From the IMG/VR virus record IMGVR_UViG_3300037851_000431, positions 1-64,000 of that record: a DNA stretch of 64,000 bases; one strand, 5' to 3'. This DNA is from a virus. Made by a program: the position numbers and the translations under genes. Below are positions 4,014 through 34,672 of this stretch, piece after piece. Every line of letters starts with the position of its first letter. Within the stretch, counting starts at the first letter, position 1. The notes beneath the pieces were generated by a model, which was given only the letters and a program-made list of their open reading frames with translations, had not been told where the DNA came from and did no database searches.

Positions 4014-4352
4014 ATGGAACCTACTGAAGAAGCAATTGTAGCAATGGAAGCAGCGGTAGATGCTGCTTTAGGACTTCAACCCTATTCTTTTGGCGGAAGA
4101 AAGACGTTTGCTAAGAATATCATCGAGCATTTACCGCCTTCGTTCTGTTTCGGGTCCGAATATCTTGAATTGGAATCAGAGTATGCTCGCCTTCGCAGAA
4201 TCGAGGAAGCACGGGACCAATGTTCCGGTTCGCCCGAACATTACGGTGGTTGTGGCTGTCTGTGCCACGGTGATTATATCATTGAAACTCATTATACAGC
4301 GACGGATGCTTTTCCCGGTATAGAAAAATCAGGGATAAATGAGAATGGTTGA
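4014..4352 (+). CDS. hypothetical protein
   Basis: 112 aa ORF with GAGG RBS. Confidence 0.55.
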   Translation: MEPTEEAIVAMEAAVDAALGLQPYSFGGRKTFAKNIIEHLPPSFCFGSEYLELESEYARLRRIEEARDQCSGSPEHYGGCGCLCHGDYIIETHYTATDAFPGIEKSGINENG

Positions 4353-5520
4353 TGTAGTAGTAGGACTTCAATGGGGAGATGAGGGGAAGGGCAAACTTGT
4401 TGATCTTTTAACCCCACTTTATGATATTGTAGCAAGATTTCAAGGGGGACCAAACGCTGGGCACACCATCTATATAGATGAAAATAAGTATGTACTTCAT
4501 ACAATTCCTAGTGGAATTCTTCATCCCCACACCCAAAATGTAATAGGTAGTGGGGTAGTTATTGATCCTATTTGTCTTCAAAAAGAAGTCGGAGAATTAG
4601 AAGCACTTGGTATTGATGTTAAATCTCGACTTTTTATCTCTAAAAAGGCTCACCTTATTCTTCCTACGCATATTCTGCTTGATAAGGCACACGATAAGGT
4701 AGGAACAACCCATAAAGGGATTGGTCCTGCTTATACTGATAAGATTGCGAGAAATGGGCTTCGGGTTGGGGATATATTAAATAATATTTGGAGAACCCAA
4801 TATCAGGATATGGTTGTTGTTCATGGAAATATCCTAAAGATGGATGAACAAACGACTAAAGAATATACAGAAGCAGAAGATAGGTGGTTTGAGAGCATTG
4901 AATTTCTAAGGGGGTTGCAACTCGTTGATACTGAAGAGTATCTTAATAGTGCCATTATGCAGGATAAAAACATCCTTGCAGAAGGGGCGCAAGGAACGAT
5001 GCTAGATGTTGATTTTGGAAACTACCCTTATGTAACATCATCTAATACTGTTGCTGGTGCAGCTTGTACGGGACTTGGTATTGCGCCCACCAAAATTAAG
5101 AATGTTATCGGTGTTTTTAAAGCTTATGCAACAAGAGTAGGAAATGGTCCATTTCCATCTGAACAGGATAACGAGATTGGGGAACAAATTCGTTCTGTTG
5201 GTAATGAGTATGGATCAACAACAGGCCGACCAAGACGAGTTGGTTGGCTTGATATGCCCGCCCTAAAGTATGCTGTTATGCTTAACGGGGTAACAGAGTT
5301 GGCAATGATGAAAGCCGATGTTTTGAGTGGTTTTGAAACTATTAAGGTGTGTACTGGTTATGATGAACAGTCAACCATGTATACTGAGTTTGAAGGATGG
5401 AATGAAAAAGGTATTTCACCCGCCCTGCAAAATTATATAGATTATATATATAATTATGTGGGTGTAAAGATTACACTTGTATCTGTTGGAAGAGATAGAA
5501 AAGATGTATGTTTTCCATAA
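4339..5520 (+). CDS. purA: Adenylosuccinate synthetase
   Basis: GLQWGDEGKGK, RFQGGPNAGHT, GTTHKGIGPAY, EGAQG, YPYVTSS, TTGRPRRVGWLD. Confidence 0.97.
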   Translation: MRMVDVVVGLQWGDEGKGKLVDLLTPLYDIVARFQGGPNAGHTIYIDENKYVLHTIPSGILHPHTQNVIGSGVVIDPICLQKEVGELEALGIDVKSRLFISKKAHLILPTHILLDKAHDKVGTTHKGIGPAYTDKIARNGLRVGDILNNIWRTQYQDMVVVHGNILKMDEQTTKEYTEAEDRWFESIEFLRGLQLVDTEEYLNSAIMQDKNILAEGAQGTMLDVDFGNYPYVTSSNTVAGAACTGLGIAPTKIKNVIGVFKAYATRVGNGPFPSEQDNEIGEQIRSVGNEYGSTTGRPRRVGWLDMPALKYAVMLNGVTELAMMKADVLSGFETIKVCTGYDEQSTMYTEFEGWNEKGISPALQNYIDYIYNYVGVKITLVSVGRDRKDVCFP

Positions 5521-7344: not shown

Positions 7345-8892
7345 ATGGCTAGATTAAATACGAAAAAAATTCCAACTAAGATGGAAGAATTAACTGTTAA
7401 CTATGAAGGTGCTGAAGCATATAAGCTTCCTGTAAAGATGCGCTTAGTTGAGCGTGTTGTAGGAGCCTTTTGGAGCGAGGATTTATTCTACGCTACCGGA
7501 AAGGAAATCAGTGGGGAAATCCTGAAAGATATTCAGGAAGTTGCCAAATCTGATCCTAAATTTATTTTACAGCTTGCCGTGTTTGCACGCAATGAGTTGT
7601 ACCTTCGAACAACTCCACAGGTTTTACTTGTTGAGGCGTCGTATATCGCAGAATGCAAGCCTTTTGTTGAGGAGTACACCTCTAAGATTGTACGCCGAGC
7701 CGACGAGTTAACTGAGGTAGTTGCTTATCATATAAGTCGAATGGGAAGTAAGAAAAACTTCGCTAACTCGCTTAAGAGGGGATTAGCGAATGCTTTTCAG
7801 TCATTCGATGAATATCAGTTGAATAAGTACAAGGGCAATACTTCAAGCGTTTCACTTGGCGATGTTGTGAAGATTGTTCACCCAACTTTCAAGGGTGATG
7901 AAGAGTACCGAAAGGCTCTATACGCATATCTAACCAAGGGGGAGGTATCCCCTGTTCTTACAAAGGTATCGGCACTTAAAACCCTGCTTTCACGCGAATC
8001 TTTTGATGATGAGGCTAAGTCTCTCATTAACCAGTCAGCGGCAACGTGGGAATCTGTTGTATCAAAATTTGGCTCAACCAAGGAAGTTTGGGAAGCCATG
8101 ATACCTAAGATGGGTTATATGGCACTTCTTAGGAACCTTCGAAATTTTGAAGAGAAAAATGTTCAATTAAATTCTGTAATTGAACGGTTAACGAATGAAG
8201 AAGAGGTTAAGCGTTCAAAGCAGCTTCCATTCCGGTTTTATGCCGCCCATCAGGAGGTTAAAACCCCTCAGTTAAAGAAAGCCGTTTCCAAGGCATTTGA
8301 GTTATCTATTAATAATACTGTTTTGGGTGGATCAACTGCTGTACTTGTTGACCTTTCGGGATCAATGTATGGTCACACTGTAAGTAAGGGTTCTAAGATG
8401 CTTTATACAGATGTTGCAGCAGTAATGGGCGCAATAGCTGTAAAGAAATCCGAATATCCTGTAGTTATTGCCTTTGCTAACAGTGCAACAAGGGTAGATG
8501 TTGATCCAGATGATACTATGATGACTACAATGAAGAATATTCTTAATTGTGGTGAGGGTGGAGGAACATATGCGTATAAGGCATTTGAAAATCTGCTACA
8601 GAATAAGCACATTAAGTTTGATCGTGTAGTCATGTTTTCAGATATGCAGTGTTATACTGAGAAAAATTATGATGGAAACGATGTTTCCAAACTTTGGAAA
8701 GAATATGTAAACACAGTTAATAAAGATGCTGTGCTATACTCTTTTGATCTTTCTGGATATGGTACATCCAAGTTTAATTCGAAATCTAAAAATGTTGTTA
8801 CAGTAGCGGGTTGGTCTGATAAGATTCTTGATTTTATCAACCTTCACGAAAAAGACAAGAATTTACTTTTGAACGAAATTGCAAAAATGTGA
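7345..8892 (+). CDS. Ro60/Rsr-like TROVE-domain RNA-binding protein with C-terminal vWA domain
   Basis: MARLN start, NYEGAEAY, FDEYQLNKY, HP, TWES, YMALLRNLRN, SKQLPFRF, MIDAS DLSGSM, FSDMQ. Strong AGGAGGT RBS. Confidence 0.93.
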   Translation: MARLNTKKIPTKMEELTVNYEGAEAYKLPVKMRLVERVVGAFWSEDLFYATGKEISGEILKDIQEVAKSDPKFILQLAVFARNELYLRTTPQVLLVEASYIAECKPFVEEYTSKIVRRADELTEVVAYHISRMGSKKNFANSLKRGLANAFQSFDEYQLNKYKGNTSSVSLGDVVKIVHPTFKGDEEYRKALYAYLTKGEVSPVLTKVSALKTLLSRESFDDEAKSLINQSAATWESVVSKFGSTKEVWEAMIPKMGYMALLRNLRNFEEKNVQLNSVIERLTNEEEVKRSKQLPFRFYAAHQEVKTPQLKKAVSKAFELSINNTVLGGSTAVLVDLSGSMYGHTVSKGSKMLYTDVAAVMGAIAVKKSEYPVVIAFANSATRVDVDPDDTMMTTMKNILNCGEGGGTYAYKAFENLLQNKHIKFDRVVMFSDMQCYTEKNYDGNDVSKLWKEYVNTVNKDAVLYSFDLSGYGTSKFNSKSKNVVTVAGWSDKILDFINLHEKDKNLLLNEIAKM

Positions 8893-8893
8893 C

Positions 8894-8923
8894 TTGAAAT
8901 CGGCACTCTATGAGTGTTATAAT
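8894..8923 (+). promoter_or_regulatory. sigma70-type extended -10 promoter for the ncRNA array
   Basis: TTGAAA-N18-TATAAT with TGn; predicted +1 falls at the 5' end of ncRNA 1. Confidence 0.7.
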
Positions 8924-8924
8924 A

Positions 8925-8996
8925 ATATGGGTAGTGTGAAAGGGGATACTTCGACTTGAAACCGCTAAAACCCCCCTTCGTTTTTCTCTCCCATAT
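8925..8996 (+). ncRNA. Y-RNA-like element 1 (short payload)
   Basis: Terminal stem ATATGGG/CCCATAT, TAGTG, inner purine/pyrimidine stem, TACTTC, pyrimidine tract; directly after Ro60. Confidence 0.7.
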
Positions 8997-9009
8997 AATT
9001 AAAAACTAA

Positions 9010-9142
9010 TTAGGTAGTGCAGTGTAGGATTTCTTCGCTTTGGGAGCCTCTGATGTAGGTGCGATTCCTACTCCCCCGAACAACGGGGGATAGCTTAATA
9101 GTAAAGCAGGGTTTGAAGCCTACGCGCGTTCTTCTCTCCTAA
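9010..9142 (+). ncRNA. Y-RNA-like element 2 carrying a circularly permuted tRNA-Pro(TGG)
   Basis: TTAGG/CCTAA, TAGTG, GTGTAGG/CCTACGC, TTCTTC. Payload order: anticodon loop, T arm, closed acceptor hairpin, D arm. Confidence 0.8.
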
Positions 9143-9145
9143 TGC

Positions 9146-9221: not shown

Positions 9222-9236
9222 ACCATAGATAGAAAT

Positions 9237-9368
9237 TGGGGTAGTGACTACTACAGTTACTTCTATTCACCATACTTATGAATTGTAGTGAAATGGTATC
9301 ACGCTTGGCCTTTAACCAAGAGTTACGGTTCGATTCCGGTAATGTCTGTAGTAAAATTTCTCTCCCCA
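9237..9368 (+). ncRNA. Y-RNA-like element 3 carrying a permuted tRNA-Lys(TTT)-like module
   Basis: TGGGG/CCCCA, TAGTG, TACTACAG/CTGTAGTA, TACTTC. Payload order: acceptor 3' strand plus CCA, acceptor 5' strand, D, anticodon, T. Confidence 0.78.
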
Positions 9369-9391
9369 TCTTCTCTAAAAGAAGGTAATTA

Positions 9392-9607
9392 ATGAAAAAA
9401 TTAGATATATTTTTGATAATAGGTATTATGATACTAATTGCTATAGTTGTAGCATTAGTAGGTGGAATAATATTCACATTTTTATGGAATTTAGTTATTC
9501 CTGTAGCATTTAATGGACCAACACTTTCCCTTATAGAAGGAACAGCTTTAATGCTATTGATTCAATTAGTTTTAGCTCCATTAAGTGTTTCAGTTAAAAC
9601 AAGGTAG
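9392..9607 (+). CDS. small two-helix membrane protein
   Basis: Hydrophobic 71 aa ORF with RBS; its TAG stop is the TAG of element 4's TAGTG. Confidence 0.65.
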   Translation: MKKLDIFLIIGIMILIAIVVALVGGIIFTFLWNLVIPVAFNGPTLSLIEGTALMLLIQLVLAPLSVSVKTR

Positions 9608-9694
9608 TGTAGTTATTGGATACTTCGGTGGGTTTGAACCCACGGGTCTTGGTGGAGACTTTTATACGTTCCAATAACGACTCCCCCTCCTTGT
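9599..9694 (+). ncRNA. Y-RNA-like element 4 (T-arm plus closed acceptor-like minihelix)
   Basis: ACAAGG/CCTTGT, TAGTG, GTTATTGGA/TCCAATAAC, TACTTC; two payload hairpins. Confidence 0.72.
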
Positions 9695-9709: not shown

Positions 9710-9846
9710 TTAGAGTAGTGTTAGTATCAGTTACTTCGGTAAAGCACAAAACATTGAATTTTGAGATTGTAAGTTCGACTCTTACCCTCCCTACTCAGTT
9801 TGGGAGGAAGCTATAAAAACGCTGATACGCCCGTTACCCTCTCTAA
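9710..9846 (+). ncRNA. Y-RNA-like element 5 carrying a permuted tRNA-Gln(TTG)-like module
   Basis: TTAGAG/CTCTAA, TAGTG, GTATCAG/CTGATAC, TACTTC; payload opened in the D loop. Confidence 0.8.
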
Positions 9847-12809: not shown

Positions 12810-12897
12810 AGTGTCATGGACAGATGCGAACACAAGTCCGAATGGATCGGAGAGCGGAATGGAGAACGATACTGTAAAGTCTGTAGAGCAACCATCT

Positions 12898-13575
12898 ATG
12901 ATGAAGTCAATCCAAGTATTGGACAAGGGTTTCGTAAGGCTCGTCCAACACATGGGCGGGGACGAGATGGTAGCCCTCTCAGCAAGAGTAAGTAATGGGG
13001 TTTTTGAGTCTGTACCAACCAAGGATCAAAAACTTATCAATTATTTAGTAAAGCACCGTCATGGAACACCTTTCGAACATAGTGTATTTACATTTCATGT
13101 TAAAGTACCGCTGTTTGTTGCGAGAGAGTGGCAAAGACATAGGATAGGAAGTTATAACGAAATATCAGGAAGGTATGTTCAGTTTGAACCAGAGTTTTAT
13201 ATTCCTTCTACATTTAGAACCCCTGCTCAGGATAATAAGCAGGGATCGGTAATTTCTACTGATCAAATGGCAGCAGATTGGTTGGCGATTCAGGTAGAAA
13301 AGTGGGCAATTAAAGCTTATGACGAATATAAAGTACTTTTGAGTACTGGACTTGCTAAAGAGATGGCAAGAATGATCTTGCCCCTTAATCTTTATACTCA
13401 GTTTTATTGGACGGTAAATGCAAGATCGTTGATGAATTTTCTAGGTCTTCGTTGTGCGCTTGATGCACAATGGGAGATAAGAATGTATGCCCTAACAATT
13501 AGGGATGAGTATTTTGCAAAAATCATGCCCATGACGCATGGAGCGTGGATGTTAAATGGTGGGATAGTCCCATAG
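12898..13575 (+). CDS. thyX: Flavin-dependent thymidylate synthase
   Basis: GFVRLV, SARVS, HGTPFEH, RHRIGSYNEISGRY, KEMARMILP, AQWEIR. Start most likely ATG 12898 or 12901. Confidence 0.95.
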   Translation: MMKSIQVLDKGFVRLVQHMGGDEMVALSARVSNGVFESVPTKDQKLINYLVKHRHGTPFEHSVFTFHVKVPLFVAREWQRHRIGSYNEISGRYVQFEPEFYIPSTFRTPAQDNKQGSVISTDQMAADWLAIQVEKWAIKAYDEYKVLLSTGLAKEMARMILPLNLYTQFYWTVNARSLMNFLGLRCALDAQWEIRMYALTIRDEYFAKIMPMTHGAWMLNGGIVP

Positions 13576-30555: not shown

Positions 30556-30632
30556 GGCCCCGTATCCCAACCGGCAGAGGAAGAGGACTTAAAATCCTTA
30601 TAGTGTCAGTTCGAATCTGACCGGGGCTACCA
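30556..30632 (+). tRNA. tRNA-Leu(TAA), short variable loop
   Basis: GAGGA-CTTAAAA-TCCTT, A73, CCA. Confidence 0.9.
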
Positions 30633-30634
30633 TT

Positions 30635-30711
30635 GGCTTCGTAGCCCAATAGGTAGAGGCGTATGCCTTAGGAGCATATTAGTAAGAGTTCGAATCTCTT
30701 CGAAGCCACCA
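30635..30711 (+). tRNA. tRNA-Leu(TAG), short variable loop
   Basis: TATGC-CTTAGGA-GCATA, A73, CCA. Confidence 0.92.
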
Positions 30712-34597: not shown

Positions 34598-34672
34598 GGG
34601 TGCGTAGCTCAATGGTAGAGTAAGAGACTCTTAACCTCTAGGTTGAAGGTTCAAATCCTTCCGCACTCACCA
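34598..34672 (+). tRNA. tRNA-Lys(CTT)
   Basis: Loop CTCTTAA, CCA. Confidence 0.9.

What the first reader, a model, noticed from the sequence alone, without database searches (positions are those of the whole stretch)
9263..9343. Element 3 payload: Lys(UUU)-like tRNA permuted at the T-arm/acceptor junction, with an internal CCA
Order: CTATTCA-CCA (3' acceptor strand and CCA), linker, TGAATTG (5' acceptor), TA, GTGA-AATGGTA-TCAC, G, CTTGG-CCTTTAA-CCAAG, then a T arm with TTCGATT. The invariant U33 is C. No ordinary Lys(UUU) tRNA occurs among the 25 tRNAs of this window. tRNA-Lys(UUU) is the established target of PrrC and PARIS AriB, which fits a decoy role (inference).
Basis: partly seen in the sequence, partly recalled or inferred. 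Interest (0 to 1): 0.75.

Follow-up and report, generated by a model that had tools for sequence, protein, structure and literature searches.

The report
Phage Y RNA with permuted tRNA mimic
The stretch is one of five small RNAs encoded just after a phage Ro60 gene: a conserved Y-RNA-type handle carries an almost complete, rewired tRNA look-alike with a lysine-type anticodon loop, an unusual variant of a known class of tRNA mimics whose function is still unknown.

Summary
At 9263-9343 a 3' acceptor strand plus CCA lies upstream of a 5' acceptor strand, D arm, anticodon arm (loop CCUUUAA, C at position 33) and T arm. ARAGORN calls tRNA-Lys(UUU) only after re-permutation.

The context changes the reading. 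The ORF at 7345-8892 is a Ro60/TROVE protein. Directly downstream are five elements that share one handle: a basal stem, UAGUG, a second stem, UACUUC, the payload, and a 3' AUUCU tail. The handle recurs next to Ro60 in many phage contigs and its basal stem covaries. Element 2 has the canonical YrlA layout. So element 3 is a phage Y RNA whose effector module is a tRNA mimic attached to the handle at the T-arm/acceptor junction.

The same topology occurs in two other phages (L007, L041), with different helix sequences and an in-register NCCA in the acceptor loop.

The genome does hold an ordinary tRNA-Lys(UUU), at 97471-97545 outside the window. The anticodon loop is not conserved in the positional orthologue, and Lys-like loops are only weakly enriched. 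The anticodon-nuclease decoy idea is therefore possible but unsupported.

An earlier follow-up of this scan on element 5 reached the same Y RNA reading.

Verdict: new variant of a known kind.

The parts
7345..8892 (+). Ro60/Rsr (TROVE + Ro60-type vWA) gene, the presumed protein partner
   Evidence: Pfam TROVE 1.6e-40 and vWA_Ro60 1.1e-8. PHROG 850 'RNA-binding protein' 3.3e-49. More than 1000 homologues, some named 60 kDa SS-A/Ro.
8894..8923 (+). Sigma-70-like promoter between the Ro60 stop codon and element 1. It may drive the RNA array.
   Evidence: TTGAAA-18-TATAAT with an upstream TG, 11 of 12 matches. This is a consensus match only.
9237..9368 (+). Whole element 3 RNA as bounded by its basal stem. 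The true 5' and 3' ends are unknown.
   Evidence: 9237-9241 pairs with 9364-9368. The fold of 9230-9375 is -36 kcal/mol, z -2.46, and 2 of 200 shuffles fold as well.
9237..9241 (+). Basal stem, 5' strand. It pairs with 9364-9368.
   Evidence: In 67 non-redundant elements the 7 nt before YAGUG pair with the 7 nt after the 3' AUUCU motif: 5.39 of 7 against 3.26 +/- 0.15 for shuffled partners. The innermost pairs covary: GG/CC, AG/CU, GA/UC, CG/CG, UG/CA.
9242..9246 (+). Conserved 5' internal-loop motif UAGUG, a candidate Ro60 contact
   Evidence: Invariant or Y-AGUG in all elements catalogued. Ro60 binding is inferred.
9249..9256 (+). Second (middle) stem, 5' strand. It pairs with 9346-9353 over 8 bp.
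   Evidence: Among the 67 elements there are 61 different 5' strands, each with a complementary partner.
9257..9263 (+). Conserved motif UUACUUC at the entry to the payload
   Evidence: (U/A)UACUUC is present in nearly every element of every array.
9263..9285 (+). Closed acceptor-like hairpin: 3' acceptor strand 9263-9269, CCA 9270-9272, linker 9273-9278, 5' acceptor strand 9279-9285
   Evidence: 6 of 7 pairs. ARAGORN accepts it after re-permutation. Homologous hairpins of 7 of 7 pairs occur in L007:5789 and L041:2909, with loops that start UCCA and GCCA.
9288..9302 (+). D arm (4 bp, loop AAUGGUA with G18 and G19)
   Evidence: Rfam tRNA alignment. ARAGORN drawing.
9304..9320 (+). Anticodon arm: 5 bp, loop 9309-9315, UUU at 9311-9313, C in place of U33 at 9310
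9324..9340 (+). T arm: loop UUCGAUU at 9329-9335. The stem has 3 canonical pairs plus 2 mismatches, or 6 bp with a bulged G if 9323-9325 pair with 9340-9342.
   Evidence: The T stems of L007:5789 and L041:2909 have a mismatch at the same position, 50:64.
9346..9353 (+). Second (middle) stem, 3' strand
9354..9363 (+). 3' internal-loop strand, pyrimidine-rich (family consensus ..AAUUCU)
8925..8996 (+). Sister element 1: same handle, very short payload
9009..9143 (+). Sister element 2: same handle, payload in the canonical YrlA order (T arm, closed acceptor hairpin, D arm)
   Evidence: Rfam YrlA RF02553 scores 30.7 bits, E 1.9e-4, at 9047-9115, below the gathering score of 69.
9599..9694 (+). Sister element 4: same handle, two-hairpin payload
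9710..9846 (+). Sister element 5: same handle, payload with a UUCG hairpin in the D-arm position, an anticodon arm, a T arm and a closed acceptor hairpin
   Evidence: Rfam tRNA partial match of 25.4 bits at 9729-9785..

Best explanation
Element 3 (about 9237-9368) is a phage-encoded Y RNA, a small non-coding RNA that works as a ribonucleoprotein with the Ro60 protein encoded just upstream.

It has two modules.
- The handle is shared by all five elements of the array and by arrays in many other Ro60 phages. It consists of a basal stem, an internal loop with conserved UAGUG on the 5' side and AUUCU on the 3' side, a second 8-bp stem, and UACUUC. It is the most likely Ro60-binding part.
- The payload is a tRNA-shaped effector module. 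The acceptor stem is closed by a loop that starts with CCA, followed by a D arm, a complete anticodon arm and a T arm. The handle enters between the T arm and the 3' acceptor strand.

Canonical YrlA RNAs instead have the handle in place of the anticodon arm and have no anticodon loop.

Most likely mechanism (inferred): the array is transcribed with the interspersed tRNA genes and cut out by tRNA-processing enzymes. The tRNA-shaped module recruits or occupies a host protein that recognises tRNA shape and, here, a tRNA-Lys-like anticodon arm. Ro60 is thereby coupled to that partner, as Y RNA couples Ro60 to PNPase in Deinococcus and in Thermus phage phiLo.

The acceptor loop may be opened by RNase P, leaving a CCA-type 3' end and a two-piece RNA held together by the handle. 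This has been shown for Mycobacterium smegmatis YrlA.

Shown here: the gene neighbourhood, the conserved and covarying handle, the tRNA-like anatomy, and its recurrence in two other phages. Inferred: Ro60 binding, processing, and the identity of the partner.
For: - Ro60 identity of the ORF at 7345-8892.
- Five elements with one handle lie within 950 nt downstream on the same strand.
- Syntenic arrays occur in relatives L001-L008 and L081-L086, in the order tRNA Ser/Cys/Ala, Ro60, array with tRNA-Glu, then Asn and Gln.
- The same handle lies next to Ro60 in distant phages L012, L031, L041, L052, L074 and L095.
- The basal stem covaries strongly: 5.39 of 7 against 3.26 +/- 0.15, with none of 2000 shuffles above 3.72.
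- Element 2 matches the tRNA-like core of Rfam YrlA.
- Element 3 core: Rfam tRNA 35 bits. ARAGORN calls tRNA-Lys after re-permutation only. The permuted fold is favoured over the linear one. The whole element folds better than shuffles, z -2.46.
- The same order (acceptor hairpin, D, anticodon arm, T) occurs in L007:5789, which like element 3 lies directly after tRNA-Glu, and in L041:2909. All helices keep pairing with different sequences.
- NCCA in register after the acceptor 3' strand occurs in 7 of about 28 closed acceptor hairpins, against 0.4 expected.
- Published precedent: YrlA mimics tRNA, and M. smegmatis YrlA is cut by RNase P and gets CCA (PMC4201824). The crystal structure shows a closed acceptor stem and no anticodon loop (bioRxiv 10.1101/312249). 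Phage Ro60 binds phage Yrl RNAs and host PNPase (PMC12135203).
Against: - No expression, end-mapping or binding data exist for this RNA.
- The handle lacks the GNCGAA / CGAA motif that marks Ro60-binding modules of described bacterial and phiLo Y RNAs. Ro60 binding therefore rests on adjacency only.
- No Rfam Y RNA family reaches threshold on element 3.
- The acceptor hairpin and T stem of element 3 are weak, and RNAfold's minimum-energy fold breaks the D arm.
- Only two homologues with the same topology were found, and the closest relatives could not be fetched.
- The genome has no RtcB or Rnl-type ligase that would tie the locus to RNA repair.
Confidence: 0.75

Rival explanations
1. Decoy or competitive inhibitor of a tRNA-Lys-specific anticodon nuclease (PrrC, PARIS AriB or similar). 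The Lys-like anticodon arm, made uncleavable or non-decoding by C33, soaks up or blocks the nuclease, possibly delivering it to Ro60 and an exonuclease. This is a possible function of the Y RNA, not an alternative to its being one.
For: - The loop CCUUUAA differs from a tRNA-Lys(UUU) loop only at position 33.
- Lys-like loops recur in payloads of other arrays: L001:6654, L083:2128, L082:3642 (also C33), L006:6592, L007:6438, L012:3543, L052:3845 and L041:2652.
- The phage carries 26 tRNAs, as expected of a phage facing tRNA-targeting defences.
- Hughes et al. 2020 (PMC7790460) proposed that the YrlA tRNA-like domain may inhibit an anticodon nuclease.
- A Ro60-like protein of phage Bas63, encoded next to tRNA genes, counters a defence system (PMC11482910).
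- Phage tRNA-Lys variants neutralise PARIS, and the authors consider that viral tRNAs may also inhibit AriB (PMC11464382, PMC12409363).
Against: - The strict tally gives only 4 Lys-like loops among 16 anticodon arms (p = 0.04), and three of them are orthologues.
- The positional orthologue L007:5789 has a different, 8-nt loop.
- Payload anticodons are otherwise diverse: UUG, AAU, UUA, UCA, GUU, CUA, CAG, CCA and others.
- The 3' side of the element 3 anticodon stem (C39 C40 A41) does not match the AriB cleavage context U36-A-A-U-C|A reported in PMC12409363.
- The host and its defences are unknown.
Confidence: 0.2
2. A true permuted tRNA-Lys(UUU) gene. The transcript would be circularised or trans-joined at the handle and opened in the acceptor loop to give a working tRNA, as in the permuted tRNA genes of the red alga Cyanidioschyzon merolae.
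For: Re-permutation gives an ARAGORN tRNA-Lys call with CCA. A 4-bp helix (9257-9260 with 9339-9342) flanked by a 3-nt bulge faintly recalls a bulge-helix-bulge site.
Against: - C33, a weak T stem and a U-U pair in the acceptor stem.
- An ordinary tRNA-Lys(UUU) exists in the genome.
- No RNA ligase was found.
- The bulge-helix-bulge-like feature is absent from L007:5789 and L041:2909.
- The same handle carries payloads that are not tRNA-like at all, such as elements 1 and 4. The constant, selected part is therefore the handle and not a tRNA product.
- Bacteria are not known to have the splicing endonuclease this needs (established knowledge).
Confidence: 0.03
3. A decayed tRNA or tRNA-dimer remnant, or a mere processing signal. 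The tRNA-like shape would only serve to attract RNase P or RNase Z and so punctuate a long transcript. Alternatively it has no function of its own.
For: [quoted passage not shown]
- The array is interleaved with real tRNA genes.
- Neighbouring tRNA-Leu genes at 30556-30711 already show a 3' acceptor strand, ACCA and the next 5' acceptor strand that can pair 7 of 7.
- The NCCA loops are what such an origin predicts.
Against: - All tertiary-contact bases of the tRNA core are kept.
- The topology is kept with compensatory changes in a phage whose Ro60 is only about 33% identical.
- The element is framed by a handle under clear structural selection.
Confidence: 0.1

Closest known systems
YrlA-type bacterial and phage Y RNAs (Rfam RF02553; Chen et al. 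2014, PMC4201824; Wang et al. 2018, bioRxiv 10.1101/312249)
   Same: - Encoded within 4 kb of Ro60 and on the same strand.
- The 5' and 3' ends pair into a long stem.
- The interior mimics tRNA, with D and T arms and an acceptor stem closed by a loop.
- Several Y RNAs per locus.
- M. smegmatis YrlA has a 7-bp acceptor stem, is cut by RNase P in that loop and carries CCA.
   Different: - In YrlA the order is T arm, acceptor hairpin, D arm. The stem to Ro60 replaces the anticodon arm and there is no anticodon loop.
- Element 3 has the order acceptor hairpin, D, complete anticodon arm, T, and the handle enters at position 65/66.
- The handle has UAGUG, UACUUC and AUUCU motifs instead of GNCGAA.
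- RF02553 does not match element 3.
Deinococcus radiodurans Yrn1 (Chen et al. 2014)
   Same: A Y RNA whose T and D arms are in a different orientation from YrlA, and which can be drawn with an 'anticodon arm' between them. It shows that tRNA-like modules of Y RNAs exist in more than one wiring.
   Different: Yrn1 has a 6-nt loop, no clear D arm and no dihydrouridine. Both strands of the metazoan-type Ro60-binding helix are present. It shows no sequence relation to element 3.
Thermus phage phiLo Yrl1/Yrl2 with phage Ro60 (PMC12135203)
   Same: Phage-encoded Ro60 with several phage-encoded Y-like RNAs next to the gene. Binding to Ro60 and to host PNPase has been shown.
   Different: The phiLo RNAs were picked by a CGAA motif and a stem-bulge-stem shape. 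No tRNA-like module is described for them.
Permuted tRNA genes of Cyanidioschyzon merolae and other algae
   Same: The 3' acceptor part lies upstream of the 5' part in the gene, and the two are joined through a closed acceptor stem in the precursor.
   Different: Those genes yield functional tRNAs through a bulge-helix-bulge site, a splicing endonuclease and a circular intermediate. None of that is evident here, and only the 7-nt acceptor strand plus CCA is displaced.
Phage tRNA-Lys variants that defeat tRNA-targeting defences (T5 tRNA-Lys against PARIS, PMC11464382 and PMC12409363; anticodon-loop variants, van den Berg et al. 2023, cited in PMC11482910)
   Same: A phage-encoded Lys(UUU)-type anticodon arm with a deviation from the host-type loop.
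   Different: Those are ordinary, decoding tRNAs that replace the cleaved host tRNA. Element 3 cannot be an ordinary tRNA: it has a permuted chain and C33, and it is embedded in a Y RNA handle.

Membership tests
Y RNA (Ro60-associated ncRNA), YrlA subfamily | Encoded close to a Ro60/Rsr gene (within about 4 kb) and on the same strand | tested here: met
   The Ro60 ORF ends at 8892 and the element starts at about 9237, both on the + strand. The same arrangement occurs in more than 20 other phage loci.
Y RNA (Ro60-associated ncRNA), YrlA subfamily | The 5' and 3' ends pair into a stem that frames an effector module | tested here: met
   A basal stem plus an 8-bp second stem. The basal stem covaries across 67 elements. 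There are 61 distinct second-stem sequences, each with a complementary partner.
Y RNA (Ro60-associated ncRNA), YrlA subfamily | Ro60-binding motif GNCGAA(N)G / CGAA in the stem region | tested here: not met
   No such motif occurs in the handle of any of the five elements. The conserved motifs are UAGUG, UACUUC and AUUCU.
Y RNA (Ro60-associated ncRNA), YrlA subfamily | tRNA-like module in the order T arm, closed acceptor stem, D arm, with the stem to Ro60 in place of the anticodon arm and no anticodon loop | tested here: not met
   Element 3 has the order closed acceptor stem, D, anticodon arm with a 7-nt loop, T. Element 2 of the same array does have the YrlA order.
Y RNA (Ro60-associated ncRNA), YrlA subfamily | Reaches the gathering score of Rfam RF02553 | tested here: not met
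   Element 3 gives no RF02553 match at E up to 10. Element 2 scores 30.7 bits against a gathering score of 69.
Y RNA (Ro60-associated ncRNA), YrlA subfamily | Physically bound by Ro60 | not testable with these tools
   Needs immunoprecipitation or a gel-shift assay with the phage Ro60.
Ordinary tRNA (Rfam RF00005) | Contiguous cloverleaf whose 5' and 3' ends form the acceptor stem | tested here: not met
   Rfam scores it 35 bits (gathering score 29), but with a gapped acceptor stem of 6 pairs. ARAGORN rejects the linear form. The linear fold is 7-8 kcal/mol worse than the permuted one.
Ordinary tRNA (Rfam RF00005) | Invariant U33 and a 5-bp T stem | tested here: not met
   C at 9310. The T stem has 3 canonical pairs plus A-G and U-U.
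Permuted tRNA gene (algal type) | Bulge-helix-bulge site at the junction, conserved among homologues, and a mature circularly re-joined tRNA | tested here: not met
   Only a faint resemblance in element 3 (4-bp helix plus a 3-nt bulge), absent in L007:5789 and L041:2909. The mature product cannot be tested here.
Anticodon-nuclease decoy (no formal family) | Anticodon arm conserved as tRNA-Lys-like in homologous arrays | tested here: inconclusive
   The hairpin is kept, but the loop is not kept in the positional orthologue. Lys-like loops recur in other element types, but the strict tally is 4 of 16, p = 0.04.

The most novel reading that the evidence does not exclude
Phage Ro60 particles carry a set of interchangeable, circularly permuted tRNA mimics on one common handle. 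Element 3 is the tRNA-Lys member of this set. RNase P would open its CCA-bearing acceptor loop to give a two-piece, CCA-ended tRNA look-alike. That RNA would bind and neutralise, or hand over to an exonuclease, a host tRNA-Lys-directed defence nuclease. This would be an RNA-guided anti-defence particle.
Probability: 0.15. Interest if true: 0.85.

Novelty: new variant of a known kind. Interest (0 to 1): 0.6.

Why it matters
What the tRNA-like part of bacterial Y RNAs binds has been an open question since 2014. Described YrlA RNAs lack an anticodon arm, so they give no hint of tRNA specificity.

This phage group offers a natural series. One conserved handle carries payloads that run from nothing, through the YrlA core, to near-complete tRNA shapes with defined anticodon-type loops. 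These are wired to the handle at three or four different positions, and many have an encoded NCCA in the closed acceptor loop.

That makes three things directly testable:
- which tRNA-binding proteins are captured;
- whether RNase P turns these RNAs into two-piece molecules;
- whether phage Ro60 particles act against tRNA-targeting defences.

There is also a practical point. ARAGORN calls some of these payloads as tRNA genes, for example the 'tRNA-Lys' in L006 and L007, and Rfam calls element 3 a tRNA. Phage tRNA counts can therefore be inflated by Y RNAs.

Tried and rejected
- **Closest relatives.** The single-protein scan of viral contigs found nothing. The metagenome scan found no relative above 54%.
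- **Pattern scans for more E3-type elements.** The first found only L007's contig. The second pattern was mis-specified and found nothing. The third gave L007's contig plus 23 chance hits in coding DNA.
- **Nucleotide search.** The locus matched known phages only through tRNA-Glu.
- **Genome relatives.** These are not available for a virus record.
- **RNA repair context.** No RtcB, Rnl2 or Rnl1 was found in the genome. The Rnl1 control rang nowhere, so that absence is weak.
- **Recent copy of the phage's tRNA-Lys?** No. Element 3 is no closer to the Lys tRNAs than to Val, Gln or Gly.
- **Thermodynamic folding.** On its own it is not decisive. The handle-less element has z -0.21, and the minimum-energy fold disrupts the D arm.
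- **Alignment for a covariance model.** A MAFFT alignment of the three E3-type elements puts the acceptor stems one column out of register. I therefore compared the helices by hand and built no covariance model.
- **Hand tally of Lys-like loops.** My count of about 8 of 24 shrank to 4 of 16 under a strict script, so I do not rely on it.
- **Loops ending U36-A37-A38.** These are frequent, but not clearly more so than among real tRNAs.
- **Metazoan Y RNAs.** From memory, GGUAGUG also occurs in them. Rfam's Y_RNA model gave no match, so this stays an unverified lead.
- **Reviews.** Two reviews by Sim and Wolin were not held.
Full report
**1. What is at the coordinates**

- 9263-9269 is complementary to 9279-9285 in 6 of 7 positions, with one U-U.
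- CCA follows at 9270-9272.
- After the 5' acceptor strand come U8/A9, a 4-bp D arm with loop AAUGGUA, and G26.
- Next is a 5-bp anticodon arm with loop CCUUUAA, then a short variable region and a T arm with loop UUCGAUU.
- All the bases that make the tertiary contacts of a tRNA are there: U8, A14, G18, G19, A21, G53, U54, U55, C56, A58 and C61, plus an R15-Y48 pair and a G26-A44 pair. U33 is the exception, since position 33 is C at 9310.
- The T stem is poor: three canonical pairs, then A-G and U-U.

Rfam's tRNA model scores the linear stretch 9280-9347 at 35.0 bits, above its gathering score of 29. That score comes from the D, anticodon and T arms. The acceptor stem it uses is gapped.

ARAGORN does not call the element in its natural order. 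At default thresholds it calls tRNA-Lys(ttt) when 9263-9272 is placed behind 9279-9338, 9339 or 9340.

The permuted cloverleaf evaluates to -19.5 to -20.5 kcal/mol, against -12.4 for the linear alternative. The unconstrained optimum (-24.2) breaks the D arm, and the acceptor hairpin by itself is nearly neutral.

**2. The surroundings change the picture**

The 515-aa ORF at 7345-8892 is a Ro60/Rsr protein: Pfam TROVE 1.6e-40 and Ro60-type vWA 1.1e-8, and PHROG 850.

A strong sigma-70-like promoter match lies between its stop codon and the first element.

Five elements then follow within 950 nt: 8925-8996, 9009-9143, 9237-9368, 9599-9694 and 9710-9846. They are interleaved with tRNA-Glu, a 71-aa membrane ORF and tRNA-Asn.

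All five share one frame:
- a basal stem;
- UAGUG;
- two or three free bases;
- an 8-bp second stem;
- (U/A)UACUUC;
- a variable payload;
- the return strand of the second stem;
- a pyrimidine-rich strand ending AUUCU;
- the return strand of the basal stem.

Element 2's payload has the order T arm, closed acceptor hairpin, D arm. It matches the tRNA-like core of Rfam's YrlA family (30.7 bits, E 1.9e-4, below gathering).

The genome is an IMG/VR record of 105.7 kb (88% complete) from a tailed phage with 26 tRNA genes.

**3. Related loci**

Ro60 has more than 1000 homologues. An alignment of the closest ones retrieved 80 viral and 23 metagenomic loci.

The nearest available relatives have Ro60 52-54% identical (L001-L008, L081-L086, L102). 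They are syntenic: tRNA Ser/Cys/Ala, Ro60, an array with tRNA-Glu inside it, then tRNA-Asn and tRNA-Gln. They carry four to seven elements with the same frame.

The frame also stands next to Ro60 in much more distant phages (L012, L031, L041, L052, L074 and L095).

Across 67 non-redundant elements, the 7 nt before YAGUG pair with the 7 nt after AUUCU at 5.39 of 7 positions. Shuffled partners give 3.26 +/- 0.15, and none of 2000 shuffles exceeded 3.72. The innermost pairs switch between GG/CC, AG/CU, GA/UC, CG/CG and UG/CA. The second stem has 61 different sequences, each with its complement.

The frame is thus an RNA structure under selection. Its conserved internal loop is the natural candidate for the Ro60 contact. 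That last step is inference, because the published GNCGAA/CGAA motif (PMC4201824, PMC12135203) is absent.

**4. Payloads**

Payloads fall into several classes:
- very short ones;
- the YrlA order;
- anticodon arm, T arm, acceptor hairpin, D arm (for example L001:6654);
- D-like hairpin, anticodon arm, T arm, acceptor hairpin (window element 5, L008:6016, L002:6601 and L083:2128);
- near-linear tRNA-like ones that ARAGORN calls tRNA-Lys or 'SeC' (L006:6592, L007:6438, L082:3642 and L005:6397);
- one complete tRNA with ACCA inside the frame (L031:860);
- the order of element 3, namely acceptor hairpin, D, anticodon arm, T.

That last order occurs in two further loci.
- L007:5789 sits directly after tRNA-Glu, like element 3, and is its positional orthologue. 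It has a perfect 7-bp hairpin whose loop begins UCCA.
- L041:2909 comes from a phage whose Ro60 is only about 33% identical. It has a 7-bp hairpin whose loop begins GCCA.

In all three, the acceptor, D and anticodon helices pair with different sequences. All three T stems carry a mismatch at 50:64. RNAfold recovers the hairpin, D arm and anticodon arm of L007:5789 unaided.

With its basal stem included, element 3 folds at -36 kcal/mol, z -2.46.

**5. The internal CCA**

Among about 28 closed acceptor hairpins in scaffolded payloads, seven have N-CCA in register right after a 7-bp 3' strand: L084:2900, L006:6256, L041:2786, L074:3255, L002:6601, L041:2909 and L007:5789. About 0.4 would be expected by chance. 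Several others have ACAA or AACA.

In element 3 the CCA is in register only if A9269 is read as the discriminator, which gives a 6-bp stem.

This pattern fits two published points. M. smegmatis YrlA, which has a 7-bp acceptor stem, is cut by RNase P in that loop, acquires CCA, and both halves stay bound to Rsr (PMC4201824). Y RNAs are thought to descend from dimeric tRNA transcripts (quoted in bioRxiv 10.1101/312249).

The window itself shows such a precursor state. In the adjacent tRNA-Leu genes at 30556-30711, the first 3' acceptor strand, ACCA and the next 5' acceptor strand can pair 7 of 7.

**6. The Lys question**

The genome has normal tRNA-Lys(UUU) at 97471-97545 and tRNA-Lys(CUU) at 34598-34672, both with A73-CCA. 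Element 3 is not a recent copy of either.

Lys-type loops are frequent by eye in other payloads, including one with C33 (L082:3642). A strict script keeps 16 anticodon arms, of which 4 are Lys-like (p = 0.04), and three of those are orthologues.

The orthologue L007:5789 has an 8-nt loop and L041:2909 has a 6- or 8-nt U-rich loop. So the arm is conserved but the Lys-like loop is not.

The phage has no RtcB or Rnl-type ligase.

The decoy idea has published relatives:
- a proposed competitive inhibition of an anticodon nuclease by YrlA (PMC7790460);
- a Ro60-like anti-defence protein next to tRNAs in phage Bas63 (PMC11482910);
- phage tRNAs that neutralise PARIS (PMC11464382, PMC12409363).

Nothing here tests it.

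**7. Verdict**

Element 3 is best read as a Y RNA of a phage Ro60 particle with an unusually complete and differently wired tRNA mimic. It works like a YrlA RNA, but it fails three of that family's defining features: motif, module order and Rfam score. I class it as a new variant of a known kind.

An earlier follow-up of this scan on element 5 of the same array reached the same general reading. My evidence was gathered independently of it.

Noticed in passing
window 8894-8923: A near-consensus sigma-70-type promoter (TTGAAA, 18 nt, TATAAT, with TG) sits exactly between the Ro60 stop codon and the basal stem of element 1. The array may have its own start, with element 1 at the 5' end of the transcript.
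   Followed up: no
window 9392-9607; L001:6410-6652: A 71-aa membrane-type ORF lies inside the RNA array, and its stop codon falls within the UAGUG motif of element 4. A homologue (30% identity, E 1e-6) lies at the same place in the L001 array and also ends at the next element's motif.
   Followed up: partly
L006:6610-6682, L007:6455-6526, L005:6411-6480: ARAGORN calls these as tRNA-Lys(ctt), tRNA-Lys(ctt) and 'tRNA-SeC(tca)'. They lie inside the Y RNA frame, and their 'acceptor stem' is made by the conserved CUUC motif. Phage tRNA counts may include such Y RNA payloads.
   Followed up: partly
L031:860-985: A complete, unpermuted tRNA with a 7-bp acceptor stem and encoded ACCA sits as the payload inside a Y RNA frame next to a distant Ro60 gene.
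   Followed up: no
window 30556-30711: In two adjacent tRNA-Leu genes, the first 3' acceptor strand, ACCA and the next 5' acceptor strand can pair 7 of 7. This is the kind of dimeric tRNA transcript from which Y RNA tRNA-like modules are proposed to derive.
   Followed up: no
window 9241-9246 and 9258-9263 (all elements): The two conserved handle motifs GUAGUG and UACUUC are complementary to each other in 5 of 6 positions. Pairing them would exclude the second stem, so an alternative conformation is conceivable.
   Followed up: no
window 9256-9260 and 9322-9326: The pentamer GUUAC occurs twice in element 3. Both copies of UUAC can pair with GUAA at 9339-9342. One pairing extends the handle and the other lengthens the T stem, and the two are mutually exclusive.
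   Followed up: partly
window 9036-9043 and homologous elements (L006:6216, L008:5778, L082:3344): The YrlA-order payloads keep a conserved CUUGGGA-type heptamer right after UACUUC. It looks like a tRNA-Pro(UGG) anticodon loop, and in L082 and L006 it is closed by a short stem made with the CUUC motif.
   Followed up: partly
window 4339-5520 and 12811-13575: The phage encodes a full-length adenylosuccinate synthetase homologue (Pfam 3.6e-148) and a ThyX thymidylate synthase. Whether the former is a PurZ-type enzyme of a modified-base pathway was not examined.
   Followed up: no
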